DNA of 61,545 nt from a virus (Duplodnaviria; Caudoviricetes): IMG/VR virus record IMGVR_UViG_3300035673_000003, positions 1-61,545 of that record; one strand, written 5' to 3'. The translations under genes were made by a program, and so were the position numbers. Of this stretch, positions 11,491 to 47,133 are shown piece after piece (position 1 is the stretch's first letter; every line of letters begins with the position of its first letter). The notes under the pieces are model-generated. The model was not told the DNA's origin, searched no databases, and saw only the letters and a list, made by a program, of their open reading frames with translations.

Positions 11491-11991
11491 ATGATCGCTT
11501 TAATCACCCGCGCCGCGGGCATGTTCGGCTTGAGCCTGGCCCCGCTTTGGGCCGGCGCGATCGCCGCCCTCCTGATCGGAGGCGGCTTCGGCGTCTACAG
11601 CCTCAAGCTCTACAACGCGGGGTACCGCTCCGCCGATAGCAAGTGCCAGGCGGCGGCGCTGCAGTCCGAGATCGACGCGTTGAAAGCGGATCGCGACAAC
11701 GCGAAGCGGGCGGCTGGCGACGCCGCGCTCCGTCTCGCCACCATCGAGAAGCAGTCCACAGAAAATCAGGAAAGGACATCAGCCTATGTTGCCGAACTCG
11801 AACGAGCAGCCGCCGCGCCGCCGCCGAAGGACGGCAAGCCTGCTGTTGGGAAGCCTTGCGCTCTCACTGCCGCTGATCTCCGGGGGATGCGCGCACCAGT
11901 CGCCCGCGCCCGTCCCATTCGCCCGCGACCTTCCGTCGGCCCCCGATGGCTTGCTCCAGCCGGTAGCGGTCCCGCCGTTAAAGCTAGGTGA
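11491..11991 (+). CDS. Inner-membrane spanin (Rz-like)
   Basis: N-terminal TM followed by a coiled coil; follows the endolysin and overlaps a lipoprotein ORF. Confidence 0.7.
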   Translation: MIALITRAAGMFGLSLAPLWAGAIAALLIGGGFGVYSLKLYNAGYRSADSKCQAAALQSEIDALKADRDNAKRAAGDAALRLATIEKQSTENQERTSAYVAELERAAAAPPPKDGKPAVGKPCALTAADLRGMRAPVARARPIRPRPSVGPRWLAPAGSGPAVKAR

Positions 11992-14581: not shown

Positions 14582-14754
14582 CGTGTCGCGCCTCGGCGTT
14601 TTCCAAAAAATGCTAGTAGTTTCCGATACCGCGACGAATTTTAAGTCCCTTGCGTCTACCAATTCCGCCACGTCCGCTCGTTGATTTATAAGACCTTTTC
14701 GGCGTTTCCCGCCTGACGTTTTCCAAACATGCTTAACCGTTTTCCAAAACGGTT
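14545..14754. repeat. attP arm-type integrase binding repeats CGTTTTCCAAA x4
   Basis: Direct copies at 14545, 14597, 14717 and 14738, two on each side of the tRNA-identical core, next to the integrase stop. Confidence 0.8.
14638..14677 (-). other. attP core: 5' half of tRNA-Leu(UAA) (not a complete tRNA)
   Basis: The minus strand reads GCGGACGTGGCGGAATTGGTAGACGCAAGGGACTTAAAAT (acceptor 5' strand, D arm, anticodon 5' strand, CTTAAAA loop). tRNA similarity stops one base after the loop. Confidence 0.88.
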
Positions 14755-15911
14755 CACGATGCACCCCCAGCATCCTTCACCCGCTTGAAGGCGCGGATGA
14801 CGTTCTCCTCGGCTTCGACGTGCCGCGTATAGTGCGCGCCCATGCGCTCGGATTTGTCGCCGAGCAGGCCGGCGATCTCCGAATTGGTGGCACCTCCGGT
14901 CCGCTTCCACCATGCGGCGTAAGAGACGCGCAGGCCGTGCAGCGTGGTCCCGGCGCCGATCAGCCCCTTGCGCTCAAGGTCGCGGAGATAGTGGCTGACG
15001 CGGGTTTGCATTTCCTTTTCGCTCGGCCACGGCGTCCCATCGTCGCGCATCGCAATGAGAGTGCCGGATCGGTTCAAGCCCGCGAGGAAGGGTTGGAGCT
15101 CGGGCATCGCCGGCAGGTAGAGGCCGCGCTTGTTTTTGCGGGTCACGAAGCGGAAGCACATGCCGGTCAACTCGTCCGGTTGGTAATGCTTCCAACTGGC
15201 GACGACGATGCTCTGCCCGCGCAGGCCGCCGAACCGCGCCAGCATCAACGGGATCTTGATCTCCATCGGCGCGTGAGCGAAGGCGGTCGGAAGCTCCGCC
15301 TTGAACCACTCGCGGTTGGCGTTCGGATCGGCTTCGTGAGCCTTGTCCATGCCGCGACAGGGATTGACCATCATCCCTGTTTTGTTTCCGCGCTTCACCG
15401 CCTGGGTGAACATAGACGACAGCGCGCTAATCATCTGATCGGCGAAGCGCGGCCACTTCTGGTTCGCGCACTTGTCGCGGAGGTCGTAAAGGTCGGGCTG
15501 TGTGATGTCGACCAATGCGATGTCGAACTCGTCGCGAAGCCAATCGAAGGCGTCGAGGTAGTCCGTCCTCGTCGCGGCCGCCAGCTTGGTCCGCCACTTC
15601 GGATAACCGTCCGGATTTTCACCGAAGCGGTCCTCTGCCTTTCGCTCCTCAGCCGTGCGGTCAATGTCGCCGTTGGTGAACCAGTGCACGAAGCCGCCGA
15701 GCGTCTCGACAGAGAACGAGCTCGCAGGGCGGGCGCGCGTCCGTGGGCGGTTGTAGCCGGCGATAAATTCGGGGGAAGCGAGCGCGCGCTCAAGGTCGGC
15801 GCGGCTGCCTTCGAGGCCCTTTATCAGGGCCGCGCCGCTCGAACGGAGATAGACGTACCACTTGCCCCGCGCTCGGGCGATCTTCAAACCTTGCAGCTTA
15901 ACCCTTACCAC
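14754..15911 (-). CDS. int: Tyrosine integrase
   Basis: GLRGQS (R), TLHGLR (HxxR), LLGD, AHYTR (Y). Start placed at GTG 15911 after GGAG (ORF track starts at 15980). Confidence 0.93.
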   Translation of the reverse strand: MVRVKLQGLKIARARGKWYVYLRSSGAALIKGLEGSRADLERALASPEFIAGYNRPRTRARPASSFSVETLGGFVHWFTNGDIDRTAEERKAEDRFGENPDGYPKWRTKLAAATRTDYLDAFDWLRDEFDIALVDITQPDLYDLRDKCANQKWPRFADQMISALSSMFTQAVKRGNKTGMMVNPCRGMDKAHEADPNANREWFKAELPTAFAHAPMEIKIPLMLARFGGLRGQSIVVASWKHYQPDELTGMCFRFVTRKNKRGLYLPAMPELQPFLAGLNRSGTLIAMRDDGTPWPSEKEMQTRVSHYLRDLERKGLIGAGTTLHGLRVSYAAWWKRTGGATNSEIAGLLGDKSERMGAHYTRHVEAEENVIRAFKRVKDAGGAS

Positions 15912-16149
15912 CGACACGCTCCCCGATACGCCTACGCTGCGTAGTGGGGGAGGCTGCGTCGTTTTTATCGAGCGTGTCAAGCCATCCGTCGAGGCGGGCG
16001 CGACGGTAGCGGTGCCCGCGCGTGGATTGCGTGAATTCGATGGGCTTGACAGGACACACCTCCTTGAAGGTATCGACGCTCAGACCGCAGTAAGCCGCGG
16101 CCTGGTCGAGACGGAGCGCTTCCGGCCAGTATGGGAGGCGGTCCGACAT
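15898..16149 (-). CDS. xis: Excisionase-like HTH protein
   Basis: PEALRLDQAAAYCGLSVDTF...YRRARLDGWLD; directly upstream of int. Confidence 0.8.
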   Translation of the reverse strand: MSDRLPYWPEALRLDQAAAYCGLSVDTFKEVCPVKPIEFTQSTRGHRYRRARLDGWLDTLDKNDAASPTTQRRRIGERVGGKG

Positions 16150-35533: not shown

Positions 35534-36151
35534 ATGGCTGCAAAGAAAAAGCCGACACCGAAGAAAAAGACGCCAGCGCCGCCGAGGACCGAGCGGAAGA
35601 TCGAGGTCGTGCAGTGGCACGTCGATCAGCTGAAACCCTACGCGCGCAACTCTCGCACCCACAGCGCCAACCAGGTCGCCGCGCTCGCGCGCTCGATCAC
35701 GCGCTTTGGCTTCACCAACCCGATCCTCGCGGGCGACGACGGAACGATTGTCGCCGGCCACGGGCGCTTGATGGCGGCCATGTCGATCGGCATGAAAACG
35801 GTCCCGGTTATCGTCGTCTCCGATTGGACCGACGAGGAGCGCCGCGCCTACGTGATCGCGGACAACAAGATCGCGCTCGACGCGGGCTGGGACGAGGCGT
35901 TGCTCAAGCTGGAGCTGGGCGAGCTCGCGGAGGCCGGGATTGATCTGGAGCTGACCGGCTTCAAAGAGGAGGAGCTAAACAGTCTGTTCGGCGCCGTCGC
36001 CGACGACATCGACAACTCCGAAGCCGCAGCGCCGCAACTGGACGGTCTGGCCTATTCGGTGATCGTCCGCTGCGATAGTGAGGCGCATCAAGGCGAACTG
36101 CTGGAACAGTTCGAGAAGCAGGGCCTCAAGACTGAGGCGCTGATAAGCTGA
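35534..36151 (+). CDS. ParB/Srx N-terminal-domain protein (terminase-linked type, no methyltransferase domain)
   Basis: LKPYARNSRTH...SITRFGFTNPIL...IVAGHGRLMAA...AYVIADNKIALDAGWD. Confidence 0.9.
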   Translation: MAAKKKPTPKKKTPAPPRTERKIEVVQWHVDQLKPYARNSRTHSANQVAALARSITRFGFTNPILAGDDGTIVAGHGRLMAAMSIGMKTVPVIVVSDWTDEERRAYVIADNKIALDAGWDEALLKLELGELAEAGIDLELTGFKEEELNSLFGAVADDIDNSEAAAPQLDGLAYSVIVRCDSEAHQGELLEQFEKQGLKTEALIS

Positions 36152-38269: not shown

Positions 38270-38298
38270 CGTGATCTCCTTTTTGTGTGTTTACGGTT

Positions 38299-38733
38299 TC
38301 AGTCGAAGGGCAGCGTGATCTCCTTGCCATCCGCAAGAATGACGACGCGGTAGGCTCGCTCCAGGTCGCTTGGAGCGATGAACGTTTCGAAGTCCAACAT
38401 GCCGAGCCGCTGCCGCGCGCAAAGGCGGCAGTTGCCGTCGACGATGTGGCGCTCGCCTTCGCAGTCCAGGCTCAAGACTGGCTTCGCCAGAACGTCTGGC
38501 ATCTGGCAGAAGCGGAGGACCTTCGGCCAGTCGATGTTGGCGGTGTGTGCCGCCGTCTGAGGCGGTATCACCGACATGGGGCGCCGGATCGGCGGGCCAA
38601 AAAGGCCCGCCTCCGCATCCTTCCGGATGCGCGTGATGTTCCACATGATCGCCTTGCCGGCGATGCTTGGGTCGAGGTCGTAGACTTCGTCGGTGATCGA
38701 GCATCCGATGAAGTCGATCCGCGGGTCTGTCAT
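38299..38733 (-). CDS. Stand-alone ParB/Srx-like protein (144 aa)
   Basis: KPVLSL...RHIVDGNCRLCARQRLG resembles the IVDGxHR ParB/Srx motif. Confidence 0.6.
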   Translation of the reverse strand: MTDPRIDFIGCSITDEVYDLDPSIAGKAIMWNITRIRKDAEAGLFGPPIRRPMSVIPPQTAAHTANIDWPKVLRFCQMPDVLAKPVLSLDCEGERHIVDGNCRLCARQRLGMLDFETFIAPSDLERAYRVVILADGKEITLPFD

Positions 38734-38903
38734 TGTCTGATCTCCGTTTCAAAATAGCGGCGCTCCGCTTCGTGAACCTCTAGTCCATAGCCAGCGTTCA
38801 CGTCGACTTGGCATCGCTGCCGGAATTGCTCGCGAGTGAGCTTGGGCGGCATTGCATCGAGAATGTCCAAGACATACTCCTCGTCCACGTCGTCGGTCGT
38901 CAT
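38730..38903 (-). CDS. Acidic hypothetical protein (57 aa)
   Basis: AAAGGAGATCA leader before ATG 38903. Confidence 0.7.
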   Translation of the reverse strand: MTTDDVDEEYVLDILDAMPPKLTREQFRQRCQVDVNAGYGLEVHEAERRYFETEIRQ

Positions 38904-38916
38904 GTTCTGATCTCCT

Positions 38917-39318
38917 TTAGAGGTTGAGTAATTCAAGCAACGCTTGCGGCGCTTCCTGCAGGGATTGAACGCCACGCCACGGCACGAACGGCACCGGACG
39001 CGAATTCCGCAACACGAGCGCCCAATGCCCGCGCTGATACCACTTGCTCTTGTGATCGCGGACACAGTCCACGATCTCGGTGATGCCGATGATGCCGCCC
39101 TCCGGAAGCAGGGAAGGCGGTCGAACGCCATAGTGGCGCTCGATCTCGGCGGCGGTTATGTCATCGCCGCGCTTTGACGCGTGAACGATTAACGTTCCGC
39201 GGTACTGTGTCCGCCACGTTCTGTTCTCGACGTCCTTTAGTCCGTTGACGATCAGAGACGCCCACGGTTGCTTTATGGCGAGGACTTTGGCTTTCGGCAG
39301 CATCTGGTTTCCTGTCAT
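38917..39318 (-). CDS. ASCH-domain protein
   Basis: LAIKQPWASLIVNGLKDVENRTWRTQYRGTLIVHAS...GGIIG...DC. Confidence 0.9.
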   Translation of the reverse strand: MTGNQMLPKAKVLAIKQPWASLIVNGLKDVENRTWRTQYRGTLIVHASKRGDDITAAEIERHYGVRPPSLLPEGGIIGITEIVDCVRDHKSKWYQRGHWALVLRNSRPVPFVPWRGVQSLQEAPQALLELLNL

Positions 39319-40168
39319 TGAGAAGGTCTGTTGTTGTCGCCACGCGCCGCAGGTCGTGTTCCATCTGCAGAACGTGTTTACGCACCAGCACTAACCGATC
39401 CGCCATGAGCAGAAGGCGATCAGGAGAGACGCGCTGCGCTGCGACGCATTCGCCTTCCTTAAAGCCCGACTGGATCATGTCGGCCACGAGGTTGATCTTC
39501 CTTTCCAGCCGCGAGAGCGCGGCCAGGTCCTGTTCGGACGCGCGCGGCATTTCGCCGAAGGCGTCGAGTTGGTTCTCCGCATCGCGCAAGGCGATGCAAG
39601 CGTGTTTCACCTGTTCGGACGTTGTGAATTTGCCCGCGCTTATCGCGCGGACCATTGCGATCTGCCGAGCCGGTGGAAGGTGCGCCACGCCTCCCGCCAT
39701 TGTCGACGCGAGCTGTCCCGAAGCCACGAGAGCTTGCACTTCGGGGATCAGTCTGAGCAGCAAGACGCGCTGTTGAACGAGCGCCGTGCTTTTCAGTCCT
39801 AACTCGGTGACGATGCGCTGCGCGTCAAAACCTTGATCGAGTAGGAGTTGAAAGGCGTTCGCCTCCTCGATAGGGTTCATATCCTGACGCTGCAGGTTCT
39901 CCACGATGGCGCGCAACGCCATTTCGTTCTCGTCGATCTCGACAACCTCGGCGCGGATTGTCTCCTCGCCGAGCAGCTGGTGAGCGCGGAAGCGACACTC
40001 GCCGGCTACGATCATGTAGCGGTCCGCTGCGATCCTCCGCAGTGCGATCGGTTGGATAAGCCCGCGCACCTTGATGGACGCGGCCAGCCGTTCAATGTGT
40101 TCCTGCGGGAACGCCTTGCGCGGCTGGCCGGGGTTGGCGATGATTTGTTCGAGTGGGATCATCGTCAT
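39161..40168 (-). CDS. ParB/Spo0J-family protein
   Basis: NPGQPRKAF...LAASIKVRGLIQPI...IVAGECRFRA...IVENLQRQDMNPIEEA plus HTH. Confidence 0.9.
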   Translation of the reverse strand: MTMIPLEQIIANPGQPRKAFPQEHIERLAASIKVRGLIQPIALRRIAADRYMIVAGECRFRAHQLLGEETIRAEVVEIDENEMALRAIVENLQRQDMNPIEEANAFQLLLDQGFDAQRIVTELGLKSTALVQQRVLLLRLIPEVQALVASGQLASTMAGGVAHLPPARQIAMVRAISAGKFTTSEQVKHACIALRDAENQLDAFGEMPRASEQDLAALSRLERKINLVADMIQSGFKEGECVAAQRVSPDRLLLMADRLVLVRKHVLQMEHDLRRVATTTDLLNDRKPDAAESQSPRHKATVGVSDRQRTKGRREQNVADTVPRNVNRSRVKARR

Positions 40169-40413
40169 CGCGAGAGCTTCCTTGCGAGCGCGCGCGCCAC
40201 GGCGTCCTGGCTCCACAGTCCGTATTGCCCCTTGAGGGTCGTTCCGAAGGACTGCAGCTCCTCGACGATGACCGGCGCGGCCTTGTCCGCCACGCTGCCA
40301 TAGACGCGATACACTTTGAGGAAGCGGCCTCCGGATTGAAAAACAGCGCCGGATGGGATCTCGGCGCTGCGCTCAATCATCGGCGGTGGGAAGAGGTCGA
40401 ACTGCCTATTCAC
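40165..40413 (-). CDS. Hypothetical protein (82 aa)
   Basis: GGAGG RBS; coupled to parB. Confidence 0.65.
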   Translation of the reverse strand: MNRQFDLFPPPMIERSAEIPSGAVFQSGGRFLKVYRVYGSVADKAAPVIVEELQSFGTTLKGQYGLWSQDAVARALARKLSR

Positions 40414-40666
40414 GATCCGCCTCCACTGCGACGCGAACGCCTTCCTTAATGCGCTCGCGGCACGTCGCCTTCATGCAGAATTGCTCGTAGTCGGACCAAG
40501 TCTGTTCGCTGTTTTGCGTCCCTGCTCTTGAGAGGAATGCCAACAGCGCCTCATAGAAGGCATTCTCGGCTGCAACCTGCCAAATGGAGCCTTCGTCGTC
40601 TCCGCTTTCGGTTCGTTTCGGGAACGCTTCGATTGCGAGGCGGAGAATTTCACCAAGTTCAATCAT
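40406..40666 (-). CDS. Acidic hypothetical protein (86 aa)
   Basis: GGAGG RBS; operon packing. Confidence 0.65.
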   Translation of the reverse strand: MIELGEILRLAIEAFPKRTESGDDEGSIWQVAAENAFYEALLAFLSRAGTQNSEQTWSDYEQFCMKATCRERIKEGVRVAVEADRE

Positions 40667-40817
40667 GGCGCCCTCCCTCGATCACGCGGAACGGGCCGAC
40701 GCGAGCGCCCGGCTCGGCGGCCTTCCTGATATCGGCCACAATGGCGTCCTGCTTGTCCTGCGGGATGCCCATCGCGTCCCATAGCCGACGCAAGGCTGTT
40801 TCGGGGTCGTTATTCAT
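40659..40817 (-). CDS. 52-aa hypothetical protein (not in the ORF track)
   Basis: MNNDPETALRRLWDAMGIPQDKQDAIVADIRKAAEPGARVGPFRVIEGGRHD after AAAGGAGATCA. Confidence 0.7.
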   Translation of the reverse strand: MNNDPETALRRLWDAMGIPQDKQDAIVADIRKAAEPGARVGPFRVIEGGRHD

Positions 40818-40939
40818 CTTCTGATCTCCTTTTCAGAGCCGACATTTGGTAGTAGGATCAGGCCACGTCGGCGTTTCGGCCTGATCTCCTTTTCGCTGGC
40901 GAGGGCCGCGACCTGTACCGGGTCGCGGCCCGCATCGTT

Positions 40940-42697
40940 TTAGCGCTTCGCCTTCGCGGTCTTTTTCGCAGATGCCTTTCTCGCGGGTCCATCGTATCCG
41001 GACACGCGCAGCTGCTTCGGAAGCCACTTCGTCTTTGACACGTTGCCGACTGCGAACTTCACAGCCGACGCCTTGTCCATCTTCGCGACGGTCGCAGCGT
41101 GATCGTCGCCCATCGCTTCGCGGACGGCCTCCACGATGGTGGCGCGGGATGCCGACGTGAAATAATCTTTCGCGTCGAACTTCTCGCGCAGCGCGGCGTT
41201 CAGCGCCTTGCTGTCGATCGCCTCACACAACGCCTTGAACGGCTTCTCCTCCAAAGCCGGTAGCTTGCTGTACGGCTTTGCGAGGTTGACCGACTTCGCG
41301 GCAACTTTCGCGAGCTCCTTCACCAGTTCGGCGGTCGACAGTTTGAGCGCCGCAGCGAAGGCCGTTTCGAAGGCAGTACGTCCGCGCGATCCTTCGGCGC
41401 GGACGGCGCAAGCCTGATCGCCACTGGCAAATCCGGCGAGCATCGCGGCGAGCGCGACGTTCGAGGACTTGTCGAGTGTCGCCTGGGCGGCGGCCGTCAG
41501 CTGCTCGGCCAGACGCGTCACGAGATTGCCGGGGATCGCGTCCTCGGCCGCGACCGGCTTTTTTGCCTCCTCTTTTCCGCCCGTAGCCGCTTTGGCTGCG
41601 ACTGCGGCCTTCGGCTCCGTGCGGCCGTAATCGACCGACAAGCCTTCGCGCCAAGCAACGGAGACGAAACAGCCGGCCTTGGCTTTCTGTTGCGGAGTGT
41701 AGGCGCGCAACTTGATCGCCGTCTCCAGCGCATCGTATTCAGCGCTGGCCGCCTCGTTGCCTTCGTTAGTGGTGCTCTCGTCGTCGCAGATCGCGGCCAG
41801 TTCCTTGAGCCGCTTTTTCTCCGTCGTTGTCGGTTTCGTCTCGACGTTTAGCCGTCCATACTGCCAATCGTTCGCCACGTCGGCGTCAGGCTTGGCCCAC
41901 GCCCATCCGTCCTTGACAAGCAGTTCGCATGTCGCGGCGACGAGCTCGCCCACCATCGTCTGCACGAGCGCGGGATCGCTAACGACGTGATCCTCTCCGA
42001 ATAGATCGCGGGTGATCTTTCCGCCGCGGGCTTCGTATGCCTCGGAGCCGATCACGCCGATCCATTTGCCCGCCTCGTTGTTGCCGATGCCGAGCGCCTC
42101 CCTGACGCGATAGGGATTGACAAAGCCTTCCAAGACAGTCTTGAGCGCCTTCGCCTGCAGCCTTTTGTCGGTGGACAGAGTGAACGTCTTGGCGACCTCG
42201 CCGCTGATCGTTCCATCTTCCCACGCCTTCAACACGCTTTCATCGAGCGAGCCAAGAGCGAGGCGTTGCTCGACGGCGCGGACAGGAACGCCAAAACGTT
42301 CCGCGATCTTCGCCGGATCGAGCGGCGCTTCCTTGTCGGTGTGAAGCGCAGCAAAGGCCCGATATTCGTCGACCGGGTGCATCGCAGTCCGCGCGACGTT
42401 GAGAGCGAGCGAAACCTCGCGCGCCTCCGCGTCCGTCTCGGGTCGGATGATAACAGGCACTTCGCAGTTGTCGGCAAACTCGCCGGCCTTCTGCAGAGCT
42501 TGGAGGGCGGCCAAGCGTTGTCCACCGTCGACAACGAGGTATCCCTTGCCGTTCGGTCGAACGGTCAACGGTTGCCGCAGTCCGATCGCCCTGATGGAGG
42601 CGACGAGGACGGGATCCACTCCACGGTTGGCGTGGCGAACGTTCGCCTTGTCGTCAATGCGGAGTGCCGAGAGCGGCAAAGTGGTTCGGTCAGACAT
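40940..42697 (-). CDS. Long ParB-like protein (plasmid/ICE accessory type, 585 aa)
   Basis: ANVR...LVASIRAIGLRQPLTV...VVDGGQRLAALQ...NVARTAMHPVDEYRAF...IAERFGV..RAVEQRLALG; YEARGG.ITRDLF. Confidence 0.88.
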   Translation of the reverse strand: MSDRTTLPLSALRIDDKANVRHANRGVDPVLVASIRAIGLRQPLTVRPNGKGYLVVDGGQRLAALQALQKAGEFADNCEVPVIIRPETDAEAREVSLALNVARTAMHPVDEYRAFAALHTDKEAPLDPAKIAERFGVPVRAVEQRLALGSLDESVLKAWEDGTISGEVAKTFTLSTDKRLQAKALKTVLEGFVNPYRVREALGIGNNEAGKWIGVIGSEAYEARGGKITRDLFGEDHVVSDPALVQTMVGELVAATCELLVKDGWAWAKPDADVANDWQYGRLNVETKPTTTEKKRLKELAAICDDESTTNEGNEAASAEYDALETAIKLRAYTPQQKAKAGCFVSVAWREGLSVDYGRTEPKAAVAAKAATGGKEEAKKPVAAEDAIPGNLVTRLAEQLTAAAQATLDKSSNVALAAMLAGFASGDQACAVRAEGSRGRTAFETAFAAALKLSTAELVKELAKVAAKSVNLAKPYSKLPALEEKPFKALCEAIDSKALNAALREKFDAKDYFTSASRATIVEAVREAMGDDHAATVAKMDKASAVKFAVGNVSKTKWLPKQLRVSGYDGPARKASAKKTAKAKR

Positions 42698-42878
42698 AGT
42701 GATCTCCTTTTGGAGCGTTTGAAGTCGCCGGAATTGGCGCTTCGTTCCGCGCACCACGAGAGGATGCGCGGCGGCGAAGCGTCAGGAATTGTCAACCGCT
42801 TCCTCGGCGGTTCGCGCATATTGATAGTGGTCGAACGGCCCCGCGCCCGGTGCGCTGCGGTACCAATGCGGCCCGCCT

Positions 42879-43265
42879 TCATCCCACGTCCATCCCGCAG
42901 CTATGGCGGCCTGTGACGTAGCGTCGTCGCGACGCCGGATTGCTCTCGCGGTACAGCGCGACAGCGTCCTCCGTGGACGGGATTTCGACGCAGCGGGGAT
43001 GCTGCGCATCCGTCAGCATGTAGACGAAGTGAGGAACGAATTCCCAATCGAACAAGTCGGGGCGCTCCTCCGGGGTAAGCTCGTCCCAAACGTCGCAGCA
43101 CAGCAATGACAGCGCGATTGCCGCGTGGCGCATTTCGCCGGCGCCTCTCTGTTCGAAGCAATCAACGATGGCGTCCGGCTCGGCGTCGTCACGGGTACGA
43201 CGCTCGAGCAGCGCCTCCCAAATGCAACAGGCAGCCTCGGCGTGTTCGGTGAAAAGGTTGGACAT
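42879..43265 (-). CDS. Acidic hypothetical protein (128 aa)
   Basis: AAAAAGGGAGATCA leader; FDWEFVP motif. Confidence 0.7.
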   Translation of the reverse strand: MSNLFTEHAEAACCIWEALLERRTRDDAEPDAIVDCFEQRGAGEMRHAAIALSLLCCDVWDELTPEERPDLFDWEFVPHFVYMLTDAQHPRCVEIPSTEDAVALYRESNPASRRRYVTGRHSCGMDVG

Positions 43266-43339
43266 TGTCTGATCTCCCTTTTTGAAACAGAGACGGCGCG
43301 CAATCGCGCGCCGTCTGGTGAAGCGGGTTTAGGTTTCGG

Positions 43340-43681
43340 TCAGTGGCCGTGGTGCCAGGTCTTGCCTCCGTCGTGTGAGTGGTGGCCGTGGGCTACAGCC
43401 TGACGGTTAATAGCGCGTCCGGACATTTGCTCCGCGCGCGCAATCGCAGCCTTTGCGAGTGCCGATCCGGTCGCCATGACGCGGCGATAGATGCAAGCGT
43501 CGGTGACGCCGTCGCGTTCCTCGGCGGCGATGCCGTCGAACGTGACAGCGCCTTGAGGCCCGATAACAACGCGGACCTTTCCGGACGCCAGCCCCTTATT
43601 GACGCGGTCGAGGACGGCGCGCACTTCCGTGACGCGCTCTTGGATGGTCTGTCTCTCCTTCAATCGGGTATCGCACGGCAT
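43340..43681 (-). CDS. AAA-associated small protein with His-rich tail (113 aa)
   Basis: MPCDT..., RDGVTDAC, C-terminal HGHHSHDGGKTWHHGH; 2 nt from the upstream gene. Confidence 0.75.
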   Translation of the reverse strand: MPCDTRLKERQTIQERVTEVRAVLDRVNKGLASGKVRVVIGPQGAVTFDGIAAEERDGVTDACIYRRVMATGSALAKAAIARAEQMSGRAINRQAVAHGHHSHDGGKTWHHGH

Positions 43682-43683
43682 AA

Positions 43684-44466
43684 TCAGAGCTCCACTGCGT
43701 TGGCGGTTACAGTCGGCTTGCCCACCGGGCGAAGCGGGGCGAGGTCAAGCGAACGTCCTTCGACTTGCGGCGCGGCGATCTCGCCGGCGTCGTCAAAATC
43801 GAGGAACGCCGTTCGGGCCTCCTCAATGCGTCGGATAGCTTGGCGGTCGATCTCCGCCTCGCCTTCCTCCGCTGACTTCACGATCTGGCGAGCCGCGGAG
43901 CGCGCAACGTCAATCGCGTTCCGCACTCGGGCCGCAGCGTCGCCAGTGAGCATCGCGCCAATGTTGCGAGCCCGGTTGGCCGCATCGCGGACCGTCTTGG
44001 GGTCGAGTTTCTTTAGTCCGTCCTCCATCGCTTCCATGAGCTCGCGGACTTCACTGTTGATCGCCTTGACGGCTTCCACGTCGTCGGGCGCGATGCGACC
44101 GATCATGACGTAGACAGACACGTGGGTGAGCGTGGCAGTCGCGTTGAATTCGTCCGCGAGCCTCCGCGCTTCGGCGATTGCGCTTTGCAAGCTCTCGGAC
44201 GCGATCTCCGGACAGAGCAGTCCAAAGGCCGAACGGGAGCAAACGCTGCGGACGAGCGAGAGAGCCTTCGAACGCACCTTGATTGCGTTCTCGTGCTCCT
44301 CCGGGTCGCTGATGACGCGTTCGGTGAGCCACTTCGCTTGCCGCTTGCCTTCCTCCGTGACGTGATCGGCTTCGATCTCCTCTTTGTTGTAATTCACGTT
44401 GCCGCGAACAGAGGTGTTGAGGCTGACCAAGAGGCCGGGGCGGAGCGTGTTCATTCTGATAGCCAT
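43684..44466 (-). CDS. AAA-associated protein (DUF3150-like, 260 aa)
   Basis: AAGGA RBS; RSKALSLVRSVCSRSAFGLLCPE...EARRLADEFN pattern; family call by eye. Confidence 0.6.
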   Translation of the reverse strand: MAIRMNTLRPGLLVSLNTSVRGNVNYNKEEIEADHVTEEGKRQAKWLTERVISDPEEHENAIKVRSKALSLVRSVCSRSAFGLLCPEIASESLQSAIAEARRLADEFNATATLTHVSVYVMIGRIAPDDVEAVKAINSEVRELMEAMEDGLKKLDPKTVRDAANRARNIGAMLTGDAAARVRNAIDVARSAARQIVKSAEEGEAEIDRQAIRRIEEARTAFLDFDDAGEIAAPQVEGRSLDLAPLRPVGKPTVTANAVEL

Positions 44467-44500
44467 TGTGGTGGTTCCTTTTCGAATTGAGTTTCAAAAA

Positions 44501-46072
44501 TTACGCAAGGTCGAGAACACGGTCGCCGGGCTGCGCTTTGGTTTTCGCATCCGACACACTGGCAGGACGCGCGCGCCCTTTTGCCCAATTACGCAAGCGA
44601 GTGATTTTCTCGCTGGCGGTTTTGCTGAGTGGCACAACGGTTCTGGCCGCAGCGAGAAGGTCGGCCGTGCTGAGAGCGCGGGCGTCATCTGCAAACGCGG
44701 TAAAGAGAGCGTCCGGAACGATGGCGGCGATCTCCGATCCGGTGAAGTCCTCGCACGTCGAGGCGATCCCGATCAGGTCAATGCCGTCATCTGTCCTGCC
44801 GTGCGAACGGAGCGCAGCGCGAAGAATTTCGATCCGTTCGGTGCGGGTCGGAAGATCAACCCACCAGACTTCGTCAAAGCGGCCCTTGCGGAGCAACTCG
44901 GGCGGAAGCCCTTCGACATCGTTCGCGGTCGCGATCACAAACGCCTCTCCGGAACGCTCTTGCATCCACGACAGGATGGCGCCGAGCGCATCGGATGACA
45001 CTCCGCCGTCGGCAGAGCCCGACGTGGCGCCCTGCAGAGCCTTCTCGATCTCGTCAAACCAAACGACGCAACGGCCGATGGCTTCAATGACCTTGAAGGC
45101 CTTCCGCATGTTGCTCTCGCTCTCGCCGACGAATTTGGAGCGGAGGGCTCCAAGGTCCATCCGGAGAAGCGGCACTCCCCAGGCGGTGGCGATCGCCTTC
45201 GCGGTGAGGCTCTTGCCGCAGCCGGGGAGGCCGGCGAGCATCGCTCCTTTCGGAGCGGGCAAGCCATATTCGCGCGCCTTCTGGCTGTAAGCCGAGGAGC
45301 GAGCGTTCAGCCACGCTTTCAGGTTCTCCAGTCCTCCGACGGCGTCGAGGCCGCCCGGGAGCGGGTCGAACCACTCCAAGACACGTTCGCGAGCGATCAC
45401 GCGGCGCTTCTCCTTCGCGATCACCTTCGGGTCGATGCGGCGCAGCTGGACGATGGACCGCGCGAAGCAGGACGAAGCCTCCTCGCCGGTCAGCCCGACA
45501 GCAGCGTCAATCGCGGCATCACGAGAGCCGTTCATGGCCGTGCCTTGCATGTCCTCCGGTAGCGAACGGACCGCAGCGTCGAGAATGGCGGCGATCTCCT
45601 CGCGATCCGGCATCGGCCACTCGATCACCGTGGCGTGGTTCGAAAGCTCGGGAGGAATGTCCGACGACGGCGACAGGATCACGATGGCTTGCGCCCGTTC
45701 GCGGTCGACGGCTGGAAGCGATCGAGCGAGATTGCGGAGTTGGCGCAGCGTCGTGGCTCCGGACGGTCCGGACAGCCACGCGGGAAGATCCCGCATGATG
45801 GTCAAGGTCCGTTCATTGCCGGTTTCGGCGCGAGAGCGAATGTTATTGAGCGCCTCGCCCGGGTCGTTGAGCTGATCCAGCACCTTTCCCGAAATATCGC
45901 AGATGCCTTGGCCGACGTCCCATGTCCGCATCGTGTAATTGGCGGCGGCCGCGGCTTCGATCAGGAGGCGTTCAACGCGCGCCTCTTCGCGTGTGACAAT
46001 CCAGATGAGCGGATTGCGAGCGCGCAGCAACGCGGAAACGTCGGCTGCGACTTCCTGTCCTTTGGTAGTCAT
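44501..46072 (-). CDS. Ycf46-like AAA+ ATPase (degenerate N-terminal module plus active C-terminal module)
   Basis: LLRARNPLIWIVTREEAR N-terminus; VGGLENLKAWL, GLPGCGKS, VVWFDEIEK and ATANDVEGLPPELLRKGRFDE. Confidence 0.9.
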   Translation of the reverse strand: MTTKGQEVAADVSALLRARNPLIWIVTREEARVERLLIEAAAAANYTMRTWDVGQGICDISGKVLDQLNDPGEALNNIRSRAETGNERTLTIMRDLPAWLSGPSGATTLRQLRNLARSLPAVDRERAQAIVILSPSSDIPPELSNHATVIEWPMPDREEIAAILDAAVRSLPEDMQGTAMNGSRDAAIDAAVGLTGEEASSCFARSIVQLRRIDPKVIAKEKRRVIARERVLEWFDPLPGGLDAVGGLENLKAWLNARSSAYSQKAREYGLPAPKGAMLAGLPGCGKSLTAKAIATAWGVPLLRMDLGALRSKFVGESESNMRKAFKVIEAIGRCVVWFDEIEKALQGATSGSADGGVSSDALGAILSWMQERSGEAFVIATANDVEGLPPELLRKGRFDEVWWVDLPTRTERIEILRAALRSHGRTDDGIDLIGIASTCEDFTGSEIAAIVPDALFTAFADDARALSTADLLAAARTVVPLSKTASEKITRLRNWAKGRARPASVSDAKTKAQPGDRVLDLA

Positions 46073-46145
46073 GTCTTGATCTCCTTTTGTGAAGTGCCGA
46101 CATGGCGCTTCGTGCCGCGCTCCGGTGGAGCGCGGTGTCGAAACG

Positions 46146-46283
46146 TCACTGAATGTCGGGAACGACGCCGAGGATTTGGACCCAGAGCGTAACGACGGCG
46201 ATGAAGATGCCGATGACAACGATGGCGATCGGGTCGCGAACCGGCAGCGGTCCGAGTTCGTCGCGGTGGTGATTGTCTTGCAT
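46146..46283 (-). CDS. 45-aa single-TM protein (not in the ORF track)
   Basis: MQDNHHRDELGPLPVRDPIAIVVIGIFIAVVTLWVQILGVVPDIQ after AAAAAAGGAGATCA. Confidence 0.7.
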   Translation of the reverse strand: MQDNHHRDELGPLPVRDPIAIVVIGIFIAVVTLWVQILGVVPDIQ

Positions 46284-46368
46284 TGGATTTGATCTCCTTT
46301 TTTAGAAACAAAAAAGAGACGGCGCGCGGTACCGGCGCGCGCCGTCCTTTTGATCCGGTCCGATTAGT

Positions 46369-46515
46369 TCAGCTTGATGCGCCCGTTTTCCAGCGGACCG
46401 CGCGGACAATCGACGCGTCGCTTAGGTGGATGCGTCGAGCCGAGCGGCGGGTGATTGGGTAGAACGAGGTCAGCCACGTTCCGTCGGCGAACTCGAATTG
46501 ATGATAGCGTTTCAT
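46369..46515 (-). CDS. 48-aa basic hypothetical protein, first gene of the cassette operon
   Basis: MKRYHQFEFADGTW... after AAAAGGAGATCA. Confidence 0.65.
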   Translation of the reverse strand: MKRYHQFEFADGTWLTSFYPITRRSARRIHLSDASIVRAVRWKTGASS

Positions 46516-46860
46516 CTTGATCTCCTTTTGATGCGGCATTGCATCCCGTCGCGCCGCACTGTCACTGCGGCGCGAAAGGCTGAAATCCGATCTTCCTAAT
46601 CCCATCGGTGCATCGGTGACGTGCCACTGCTCTTGCATCTGTTTGCTGCGGGAGGGCGTTGTCGGTTGCTGTGATGGCGTCGGAAAATGTTCAGCGATAA
46701 ATCAGAACGATGGATTGCAACGCGTGTTCGCTTCGGCTGACATATTCTGTGACGTGGCCCAGATGATCGGCACTGCACTCAATGCGAAGCGTATGGCGCG
46801 GCGGGCGGAATAGTCTCCGGCCCAGTTGGCGCTGGCGTTGCGGTAGGATCGTTCTAACGA

Positions 46861-46978: not shown

Positions 46979-47133
46979 GCTCTATTTTATTGGCAAGTGA
47001 CTGAATTTGTTAGTGTTTTGATAATAATTACGTGGAAAACGCGCGTTTTCGGACGAAAAACGACTATCCCAGACGTTCCCACGTCCTCCGCCTTCGGATA
47101 ATCAGAAGCTACAGAACGTATTGAGAGGGCGAC

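What the first reader, a model, noticed from the sequence alone, without database searches (positions are those of the whole stretch)
43340..46072. Three-gene Ycf46-like AAA+ ATPase module carried by a phage
Seen: a 523-aa AAA+ with intact Walker A/B and arginine finger in its second module is tightly followed by a 260-aa helical protein and a 113-aa protein with an N-terminal MPC, a TDAC motif and a His-rich tail. Established: Ycf46-type ATPases usually occur with small conserved partner genes of unknown function. Inference: an ATP-driven remodeller with its adaptor or substrate and a metal-binding subunit, expressed early, perhaps disassembling host complexes. No known function could be assigned.
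Basis: partly seen in the sequence, partly recalled or inferred. Interest (0 to 1): 0.7.

Follow-up and report, generated by a model that had tools for sequence, protein, structure and literature searches.

The report
Conserved phage AAA+ unfoldase three-gene cassette
A soil phage carries a tightly linked set of three genes, a protein-unfolding ATPase and two partner proteins of unknown fold, that recurs unchanged in very different phages and probably forms one still uncharacterised protein-remodelling machine.

Summary
On the minus strand lie a 523-aa classical AAA+ ATPase (44501-46072), a 260-aa protein (43684-44466) and a 113-aa Cys/His protein (43340-43681). The window is a near-complete temperate phage record. 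The trio is a real module. In 80 viral loci found through the 260-aa protein, the ATPase is present in 79 and the 113-aa gene in 75, and every miss is a locus that ends too early. Nothing else in the flanks is conserved, and 11 of 79 loci carry a permuted order. The same three genes occur in 34 Mycobacterium phage records (Corndog gp96, gp95, gp93), where published proteomics detected the products.

Additions and corrections:
- The 260-aa protein is not simply helical. It has a beta-rich domain, a four-helix bundle and a disordered tail.
- That tail carries the same short peptide (R-x-hydrophobic-D-hydrophobic) with which the ATPase itself ends.
- Both partners have no known fold. There is only a weak structural likeness to DUF3150.
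- The usual Ycf46 partners, DUF1257 and DUF2997, are absent.

Function remains unknown. My best reading is one ATP-driven remodelling machine that recruits its partner by tail mimicry. Earlier notes of this scan found this cassette (e1-4175845) and related five-gene modules on other DNA. I found no paper that describes it.

The parts
44501..46072 (-). AAA+ ATPase, 523 aa. It has an N-terminal non-catalytic domain (aa 1-245, nt 45338-46072) and a classical AAA module with lid (aa 246-480, nt 44633-45337).
   Evidence: PF00004 at E 1.4e-28 and AAA_lid_3 at E 1.9e-4, under the cut-off. phrog_8638 at 1.5e-176. The best solved relatives are Cdc48/p97 D2 domains, matching residues 243-465 only, at E about 1e-54. 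The N-domain matches PF30482-bearing clusters, including a 509-aa mostly cyanobacterial AAA cluster at TM 0.83.
44504..44524 (-). C-terminal tail peptide of the ATPase, DRVLDLA (aa 517-523).
   Evidence: 57 of 58 non-identical homologues end in hydrophobic-[D/E]-hydrophobic plus 0-2 residues. 53 of 58 also have Arg two positions before. Corndog gp96 ends in RVLDL.
43684..44466 (-). p260, the partner protein of 260 aa (256 aa if the second Met is the start). It has a beta-rich N-domain, a four-helix bundle and a disordered tail.
   Evidence: phrog_11021 at 9e-59. No Pfam family. 1377 relatives at E<=1e-3. 998 representatives of 50% clusters. AF2 model with pLDDT 81. No solved fold apart from generic helix bundles. 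Weak structural likeness to DUF3150.
43741..43758 (-). Tail motif GRSLDL (aa 237-242) inside the disordered tail of p260. A second, degenerate copy, AVEL, is the C-terminus (nt 43687-43698).
   Evidence: R-x-hydrophobic-D-hydrophobic is present in 33 of 33 aligned family members. 24 of 33 also end in hydrophobic-[D/E]-hydrophobic plus 0-2 residues. Corndog gp95 has GRAIDF and YALDFEEVV.
43340..43681 (-). p113, the small partner protein with conserved Cys3, Asp61, Cys63, His101 and His103 and an Asp-box-like hairpin SHDGGKTW.
   Evidence: phrog_11784 at 5e-40. Alignment of 54 sequences. AF2 model with pLDDT 89 and pTM 0.81. No Foldseek match at E<=0.001. Best VIA Z is 4.3. Weak BNR/Asp-box match in 45 of 54 members.
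46076..46087 (-). Stereotyped leader and Shine-Dalgarno sequence AAAGGAGATCAA, just upstream of the ATPase start codon. p260 and p113 have no copy of their own.
46317..46347 (-). Strong terminator-like hairpin upstream of the cassette (12 pairs followed by a T-run).
43296..43309 (-). Weaker G+C-rich hairpin directly after p113. It closes the cassette.

Best explanation
The three genes are one self-contained cassette that moves between phages and encodes an ATP-driven protein-remodelling machine used inside the infected cell.

Shown:
- The 523-aa protein has every catalytic and substrate-threading feature of a classical AAA+ unfoldase, plus a non-catalytic N-domain of the Ycf46-like type.
- The two partner genes always travel with it.
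- p260 has a folded body and a disordered tail. That tail carries the same short peptide (R-x-hydrophobic-D-hydrophobic) that forms the ATPase's own C-terminus.
- p113 is a small protein of no known fold with invariant Cys3, Asp61, Cys63 and His103.

Inferred:
- The ATPase works as a hexameric ring.
- p260 is its dedicated adaptor or first substrate. It is recruited because its tail mimics the motor's own tail, so both tails dock into one receptor site. That site could lie on the ATPase N-domain, on p113 or on a host protein.
- p113 binds a metal, probably zinc, and acts as a bridging or regulatory subunit.
- The machine acts during lytic growth on a target that is still unknown.
For: Linkage:
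- Of 80 viral loci found through p260, 79 hold the ATPase and 75 hold p113. The 1 and 5 misses are loci that end within 358 or 193 bases of the p260 match.
- The order is ATPase-first in 68 of 79 loci and ATPase-last in 11 of 79, with p260 followed by p113 in both orders.
- Among 65 non-redundant loci plus the window, only these three gene clusters are shared (65, 62 and 60 loci). The next real cluster occurs in 14 loci.
- The trio is also in 34 Mycobacterium phage records, at 49%, 43% and 56% identity.

Motor features.

Tail peptide: on the ATPase in 57 of 58 sequences, inside the p260 tail in 33 of 33, on p113 in 0 of 54, and conserved in Corndog.

Disordered tail and folded body of p260.

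Conserved Cys and His residues of p113.

Expression: Corndog gp96 and gp95, and the Catdawg counterparts of gp96, gp95 and gp93, were detected by mass spectrometry in infected cells or lysates. gp96 was not found in the virion preparations. gp95 gave no peptide after two rounds of CsCl banding (passages of PMC4351075).

Translational coupling in the window: a 2-nt gap between p260 and p113, and one leader for the whole trio.
Against: - No call shows physical contact between any two of the proteins.
- The receptor of the tail peptide is unidentified. The peptide is short, so part of the likeness could be convergent. In the window itself 3 of 73 predicted proteins end this way, against 1.5 +/- 1.2 expected, which alone is not significant.
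- Metal binding by p113 is inferred from conserved residues only. I could not inspect the model's coordinates. Part of the 'His-rich tail' is explained by an Asp-box-like hairpin.
- The flanking genes vary widely, so context gives no target.
- The likeness of p260 to DUF3150 fails the profile-profile test, at probability 1.9%.
Confidence: 0.5

Rival explanations
1. Counter-defence or host-takeover machine. The same trio works as above, but its clients are host proteins, such as defence complexes or a host regulator, which are unfolded to favour lytic growth.
For: The module is an accessory cassette that moves between unrelated phages with variable flanks. That is typical of host-interaction genes. 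It is kept by non-temperate cluster O phages and made during infection.
Against: No known anti-defence family matches. PADLOC gives only AAA-domain hits for the ATPase and nothing for the partners. No client is known. The trio is conserved at 42-74% identity across phages whose hosts probably span phyla, which argues for an internal or universal target rather than a strain-specific defence.
Confidence: 0.15
2. DNA-transaction accessory tethered to the sliding clamp. The tail peptide (many copies read RQLDL or RQLDF at the very C-terminus) acts as a clamp-binding motif. This would bring the unfoldase and p260 to replication or recombination sites, for example to strip proteins from DNA or from clamps.
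For: The peptide resembles the clamp-binding consensus QL[S/D]LF. That consensus is recalled and comes from no call. The peptide lies at C-termini or in disordered tails, as such motifs do. The usual neighbours are DNA-metabolism genes: ParB-like proteins in the window, Corndog, L020, L045 and L052, as well as recombinases, endonuclease VII and helicases. The Corndog arm also encodes a beta clamp (passage of PMC4351075).
Against: The Gln is often Ala, Val or Ser, and the final Phe of the consensus is usually missing. ParB-like neighbours were seen in only 3 of the 30 loci scanned. No clamp interaction was tested.
Confidence: 0.1
3. Defence, exclusion or toxin-antitoxin-like cassette carried by prophages. 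This would be by analogy with AAA+ ATPases paired with an effector, as in IetAS or SGI1 sgiAT.
For: The window phage is temperate, with an integrase at 14754-15980. PADLOC IetA models hit the AAA domain at 76 bits. A passage of PMC10954446 describes an AAA+ antitoxin of the SpoVK/Ycf46/Vps4 group.
Against: The partners match no PADLOC model and no protease or nuclease family. The trio is present in all 34 Mycobacterium phage records matched, and their authors could not obtain lysogens from such phages. It is rare in bacterial genomes: 6 loci, all in metagenome-assembled genomes, among one genome for each of 185,579 species.
Confidence: 0.07
4. Three co-transferred but functionally independent genes, or a virion-assembly chaperone set.
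For: Terminase genes lie divergently upstream in the window and in L008, L009, L016, L037, L039 and L067. gp95 peptides were found in once-banded Corndog particles.
Against: The linkage survives gene-order permutation and complete turnover of the flanks. The shared tail peptide links two of the proteins. The authors regard the extra proteins of once-banded Corndog particles, gp95 among them, as contaminants from lysed cells, and gp96 was seen only in infected cells.
Confidence: 0.05

Closest known systems
Mycobacterium phage Corndog gp96 (AAA-ATPase), gp95 and gp93, and their cluster O orthologues
   Same: These are orthologues of all three genes, at 49%, 43% and 56% identity, in the same order. 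A ParB-like gene lies a few genes downstream. The tail peptides are conserved.
   Different: An extra 86-aa gene (gp94) sits between gp95 and gp93. The host phylum differs, and the phage is a non-temperate siphovirus. The partners are annotated only as hypothetical proteins, and no function has been published.
Cyanobacterial and plastid Ycf46 (slr0374; Synpcc7942_0417) and its three-gene stress operon
   Same: It is a single-ring classical AAA+ protein of about 500 aa with a non-catalytic N-domain. The window's N-domain is the structural neighbour (TM 0.83) of a 509-aa, mostly cyanobacterial AAA cluster carrying the same N-domain family, PF30482. It is also encoded in a three-gene operon of unknown biochemical function.
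   Different: The cyanobacterial partners are a CopG-like protein and other small proteins. DUF1257 and DUF2997 are absent from the window. No call names the neighbouring cluster 'Ycf46'.
Cdc48/p97/VAT-type unfoldases with dedicated cofactors, and proteasomal ATPases that dock through C-terminal HbYX peptides
   Same: They are the best solved relatives of the ATPase module, with a canonical pore loop. By recalled knowledge, cofactors and partner rings are recruited through N-domains and C-terminal peptides. That is the logic proposed here.
   Different: The window protein has one active ring, not two. The N-domain is different. The tail peptide is R-x-L-D-L, not HbYX. The partners are unrelated to Ufd1-Npl4, UBX or 20S subunits.
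DUF3150 (PF11348) proteins beside CobT-like VWA and MoxR-like AAA_5 genes on mobile elements of Pseudomonadota
   Same: There is a weak structural likeness to p260, at TM 0.45-0.50 and Foldseek E 4e-3. DUF3150 also lies beside an AAA+ ATPase and a third partner: CobT-like VWA in 4 of 4 loci and AAA_5 in 3 of 4.
   Different: The profile-profile comparison is not significant, at probability 1.9%. The Pfam model reaches E 0.0089 in only 2 of 33 members. The ATPase clade differs (AAA_5 against PF00004), and there is no VWA protein here.

Membership tests
Classical-clade AAA+ ATPase (PF00004) | Walker A GxxGxGK[ST] and Walker B hhhhDE | tested here: met
   GLPGCGKS at 281-288 and VVWFDEIE at 336-343. 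PF00004 at E 1.4e-28 against a cut-off of 21.2 bits. Conserved in 58 homologues.
Classical-clade AAA+ ATPase (PF00004) | Pore loop 1 (aromatic-hydrophobic-Gly) and second-region-of-homology arginines | tested here: met
   KFVG at 313-316 and RKGRFD at 395-400. Both are conserved in the family alignment.
Classical-clade AAA+ ATPase (PF00004) | Hexameric ring assembly | not testable with these tools
   Inferred from the family. No oligomer was modelled.
Ycf46 family | Family-specific N-terminal domain before a single AAA module | tested here: inconclusive
   The Atlas structural neighbours of residues 1-245 carry PF30482 and include a 509-aa, mostly cyanobacterial AAA cluster at TM 0.83. PF30482 is not in the local Pfam copy, and no call attaches the name Ycf46.
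Ycf46 family | Partner genes DUF1257 (Ycf35-like) and DUF2997 next to the ATPase | tested here: not met
   The whole phage record has no match at E<=1, while the control Synechococcus elongatus does match. Neither family is among the 25 Pfam families listed for the 54 p113 homologues at E<=5; 26 matched and one is not shown.
DUF3150 (PF11348), for p260 | Match to the family model above its cut-off | tested here: not met
   No hit for P0002. 2 of 33 family members reach E 0.0089, below the cut-off. hhalign gives probability 1.9%.
DUF3150 (PF11348), for p260 | Shared fold | tested here: inconclusive
   TM 0.50 to a DUF3150 cluster. Foldseek E 4e-3 and TM 0.45 to a phage DUF3150 protein.
IetAS-type defence (PADLOC) | IetA ATPase together with the IetS protease partner | tested here: not met
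   The IetA models hit only the AAA module, at 76 bits. p260 and p113 hit no PADLOC model.
MoxR-VWA systems | AAA_5-type ATPase with a VWA partner | tested here: not met
   The ATPase is PF00004, with no AAA_5 hit. Neither partner has a VWA domain.
BNR/Asp-box motif (PF02012), in p113 | S-x-D-x-G-x-T-W hairpin | tested here: inconclusive
   SHDGGKTW at 102-109 fits the motif. The Pfam E-value is 0.009, below the cut-off, and similar weak hits occur in 45 of 54 homologues.

The most novel reading that the evidence does not exclude
This would be an undescribed class of phage protein-remodelling machine. A Ycf46-like AAA+ motor recruits its dedicated partner by 'tail mimicry': the partner's disordered tail copies the motor's own C-terminal peptide. 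A small new-fold Cys/His protein acts as the third subunit. Solving it in the tractable Corndog / M. smegmatis system could also reveal what the long-orphaned Ycf46 ATPases of cyanobacteria and plastids do.
Probability: 0.3. Interest if true: 0.8.

Novelty: new variant of a known kind. Interest (0 to 1): 0.6.

Why it matters
The cassette is widespread. The p260 family alone has 998 representatives of 50%-identity clusters. The cassette crosses from mycobacteriophages to soil phages with very different virion genes, yet none of its three proteins has a known role and two have no known fold.

A conserved, ATP-consuming machine made during infection is likely to matter for phage biology. The shared tail peptide gives a concrete handle for experiments, such as peptide binding, tail deletion and substrate trapping. 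A cultivable model exists: cluster O phages on Mycobacterium smegmatis mc2 155. Any answer would also bear on the uncharacterised Ycf46 family.

Tried and rejected
- Complex prediction of p260 with p113: no verdict, score 0.00. It says nothing either way.
- Foldseek against PDB gave no match at E<=0.001 for either model. VIA-align wide gave a best Z of 4.3 (TetR-like helices) for p113 and only generic four-helix bundles, Z up to 11.2, for p260.
- Pfam, NCBIfam and PADLOC gave nothing above cut-off for p260 or p113.
- hhalign of p260 and p113 against the two genes that follow the distant ATPase of Rhizobium phage L338C: no relation.
- hhalign of p260 against a four-sequence DUF3150 alignment: probability 1.9%.
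- tblastn of p260 against plasmids: no match at E<=1.
- DUF3150 was not found in the 5 genomes that hold the cassette, nor in 301 genomes of one class.
- Plasmid KX029331, named in a preprint, is not in the collection.
- PF30482 is not in the local library.
- Sequencing runs: no RNA holder listed.
- The 45-aa membrane ORF upstream and the 128-aa ORF downstream have no relatives in the 80 loci at E<=0.01, so I left them out of the module. In the same script I gave wrong coordinates for a third small ORF, and that result is void.
- Co-variation of the Arg in the two tails: one matching case (L017) against L023, L054, L057 and L062, which do not match. There is no pattern.
- Literature: searches for 'Corndog / AAA-ATPase / Cluster O', 'DUF3150', 'Ycf46' and 'slr0373/4/6' found no paper on this cassette. 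Supplements were not opened.
Full report
**What is there.**
- The window is a virus record of 61,545 bases, estimated 99% complete.
- It carries terminase, portal, protease, capsid, sheath, tube and baseplate genes. It also carries an endolysin, an integrase, a RecET-like recombination set and a primase/helicase. It is therefore a temperate myovirus-like phage.
- The finding lies on the minus strand, at the head of a leftward operon that diverges from the terminase genes.
- The three ORFs are at the stated coordinates and have coding-type composition.

**The ATPase.**
- The 523-aa protein starts at the ATG at 46072, directly after an AAAGGAGATCAA leader. The longer TTG-started frame overlaps another small ORF and finds no support in homologues.
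- Residues 278-406 match PF00004 at E 1.4e-28.
- The best solved relatives are Cdc48/p97 D2 domains, over residues 243-465 only.
- Walker A, Walker B, the KFVG pore loop and the RKGRFD arginines are present and conserved in 58 non-identical homologues.
- Residues 1-245 have no family in the local Pfam copy.
- The protein atlas places them with clusters that carry family PF30482. Among these is a 509-aa, mostly cyanobacterial AAA cluster at TM 0.83.
- That the N-domain is a degenerate AAA-like lobe is my inference from motifs such as WPMPDREE.

**The partners.**

p260:
- It matches only phrog_11021, of unknown function. It matches no Pfam, NCBIfam or PADLOC family.
- Its family is large: 1377 proteins at E<=1e-3 in the 90%-clustered collection and 998 representatives of 50% clusters.
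- The AlphaFold2 model (pLDDT 81, pTM 0.64) has a beta-rich N-domain with two helices (11-125), a four-helix bundle (130-226) and a disordered tail.
- Foldseek finds no solved relative. VIA-align finds only generic helix bundles.
- Two independent structure libraries list DUF3150 proteins among weak neighbours: TM 0.50 and E 4e-3 with TM 0.45. The profile-profile comparison is not significant.

p113:
- It matches phrog_11784.
- It gives a confident model (pLDDT 89, pTM 0.81) with no structural relative.
- In 54 homologues M1, C3, G44, F48, D61, C63, G88 and H103 are invariant. H101, S102, D104, G105, G106 and W109 are nearly so.
- The stretch SHDGGKTW fits the Asp-box pattern, and 45 of 54 members give weak BNR hits. 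Part of the 'His-rich tail' is therefore a structural hairpin.
- The invariant Cys/Cys/His/Asp set suggests a metal site or, less likely, a catalytic triad. Neither was tested.

**Is it a module?** Yes.
- A scan of viral contigs with the p260 alignment returned 80 loci.
- tblastn found the ATPase in 79 of 80 and p113 in 75 of 80.
- The single locus without the ATPase has only 358 bases upstream of the match. The five without p113 end within 193 bases after the p260 match, or inside it.
- The ATPase comes first in 68 of 79 loci and last in 11 of 79, with p260 followed by p113 in both orders.
- I clustered all ORFs of 65 non-redundant loci plus the window. Apart from alternative-frame shadows of these genes, only the three genes are shared (65, 62 and 60 loci). 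The next real cluster is in 14 loci.
- I scanned 143 flank proteins from 30 loci against PHROGs. The hits were terminases of several types (6 loci), a putative antiterminator (4), ParB-like proteins (3), PAPS reductases, methyltransferases, recombinases and nucleases. Most proteins had no hit.
- In the phage collection each partner matched 34 records, all Mycobacterium phages, and the ATPase matched 34 Mycobacterium records among 123.
- In Corndog the genes are 96, 95 and 93, with a ParB-like gene 90 downstream.
- In representative bacterial genomes the scan found only 6 loci, all in metagenome-assembled genomes of several phyla.
- More distant phage relatives of the ATPase, such as that of Rhizobium phage L338C, are not followed by relatives of the partners.

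**A shared tail peptide.**
- The ATPase ends in DRVLDLA.
- Among 58 homologues, 57 end in hydrophobic-[D/E]-hydrophobic plus 0-2 residues, and 53 also have Arg two positions before.
- The disordered tail of p260 carries R-x-hydrophobic-D-hydrophobic in 33 of 33 aligned members. 24 of 33 also end in a degenerate copy.
- p113 never does (0 of 54).
- Corndog gp96 ends in RVLDL, and gp95 has GRAIDF and YALDFEEVV.
- I saw this before reading the scan's earlier notes, which report the same trait in related modules.
- Within the window 3 of 73 predicted proteins end this way: the ATPase, p260 and the neighbouring 128-aa ORF. The expectation is 1.5 +/- 1.2. That is suggestive but not significant alone.

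**Expression and regulation.**
- In the window a promoter-like site (47013-46984) is followed by a strong terminator-like hairpin (46347-46317). After that come a 45-aa membrane ORF, the trio, and a second hairpin (43309-43296).
- The leader AAAGGAGATCA occurs 23 times in the window against 2.6 expected, mostly before genes of this operon. It does not occur before p260 or p113. The trio therefore reads as one cassette.
- Published proteomics found Corndog gp96 only in infected cells. gp95 gave peptides in once-banded particles and in infected cells but none after two rounds of CsCl banding, and the authors take such extra proteins to be contaminants from lysed cells. The Catdawg counterparts of gp96, gp95 and gp93 were found in an unpurified lysate. 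The authors could not obtain lysogens (passages of PMC4351075).
- Timing (early or late) is not known. No RNA run holds the stretch.

**Mechanism.**
- I commit to one ATP-driven remodelling machine (confidence 0.5). It would be a hexameric unfoldase whose partner p260 is recruited because its tail copies the motor's own C-terminal peptide, with p113 as a small, probably metal-binding third subunit.
- The catalytic features, the linkage and the shared peptide are shown.
- Ring assembly, docking, metal binding and the target are inferred.
- The rivals differ mainly in the target: host defence or host regulators (0.15), clamp-tethered DNA transactions (0.10), a prophage defence or toxin-antitoxin cassette (0.07), and independent or assembly roles (0.05).

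**Comparison with what is known.**
- The module works like Cdc48/p97-type unfoldases with dedicated cofactors.
- The ATPase resembles Ycf46, which also sits in a three-gene operon of unknown function.
- The defining Ycf46 partners DUF1257 and DUF2997 are absent. I therefore file this as a variant, not a member, of that module.
- DUF3150 genes in Pseudomonadota lie beside CobT-like VWA genes in 4 of 4 loci and MoxR-like AAA_5 genes in 3 of 4. This is an intriguing parallel, but homology with p260 is unproven.

**Novelty.**
- No paper found by four searches describes the cassette.
- Earlier notes of this scan had met the same cassette and related five-gene modules on other DNA.
- I rate it a new variant of a known kind (an AAA+ unfoldase with dedicated cofactors), with interest 0.6.

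Noticed in passing
window 38271-46528, minus strand: A stereotyped leader AAAGGAGATCA[ACG] sits just upstream of most start codons in the leftward operon. The window has 23 matches with up to 2 mismatches, against 2.6 expected. It looks like an extended Shine-Dalgarno sequence that marks the head of each cassette.
   Followed up: partly
window 40940-42757, minus strand: The 605-aa ParB-like ORF probably starts at the ATG at 42697 (MSDRTT...), right after a leader copy. That gives 585 aa rather than the GTG-started 605 aa. It weakly matches the PRTRC-system ParB model at E 2.9e-15, far below the cut-off.
   Followed up: partly
window 35534-36151 (+), 39161-40216 (-), 40940-42757 (-): One 61-kb phage carries three separate proteins with the ParB N-terminal domain. 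Two of them are in the same operon as the cassette.
   Followed up: no
window 42879-43265, minus strand: The 128-aa Cys-rich ORF directly after the cassette ends in GMDVG. This resembles the tail peptide of the ATPase and p260. It has no relative in the 80 related loci and no family.
   Followed up: partly
window 46146-46283, minus strand: A 45-aa ORF with one hydrophobic helix and its own leader lies between the upstream terminator-like hairpin and the ATPase. It is not conserved in the related loci.
   Followed up: partly
window 46984-47025: Back-to-back promoter-like sites lie on both strands in the roughly 1-kb gap between the cassette operon and the small terminase gene.
   Followed up: no
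L096-L099 (Pseudomonadota genomes): DUF3150 genes lie next to CobT-like VWA genes (4 of 4 loci) and near MoxR-like AAA_5 genes (3 of 4). SSB, RecT, YqaJ or TraI_2 genes are nearby, so these appear to be mobile-element backbones with their own uncharacterised AAA+ trio.
   Followed up: partly
protein P0156: In one 670-aa family member, the first 204 residues of p260 continue into a region with SAM-methyltransferase-like motifs, including NPPF. This was seen by eye and not scanned. It may be a real fusion or an assembly artefact.
   Followed up: no
L001 (Corndog) 11539-11799: Cluster O phages have an extra 86-aa gene (gp94) inserted between the p260 and p113 orthologues.
   Followed up: no
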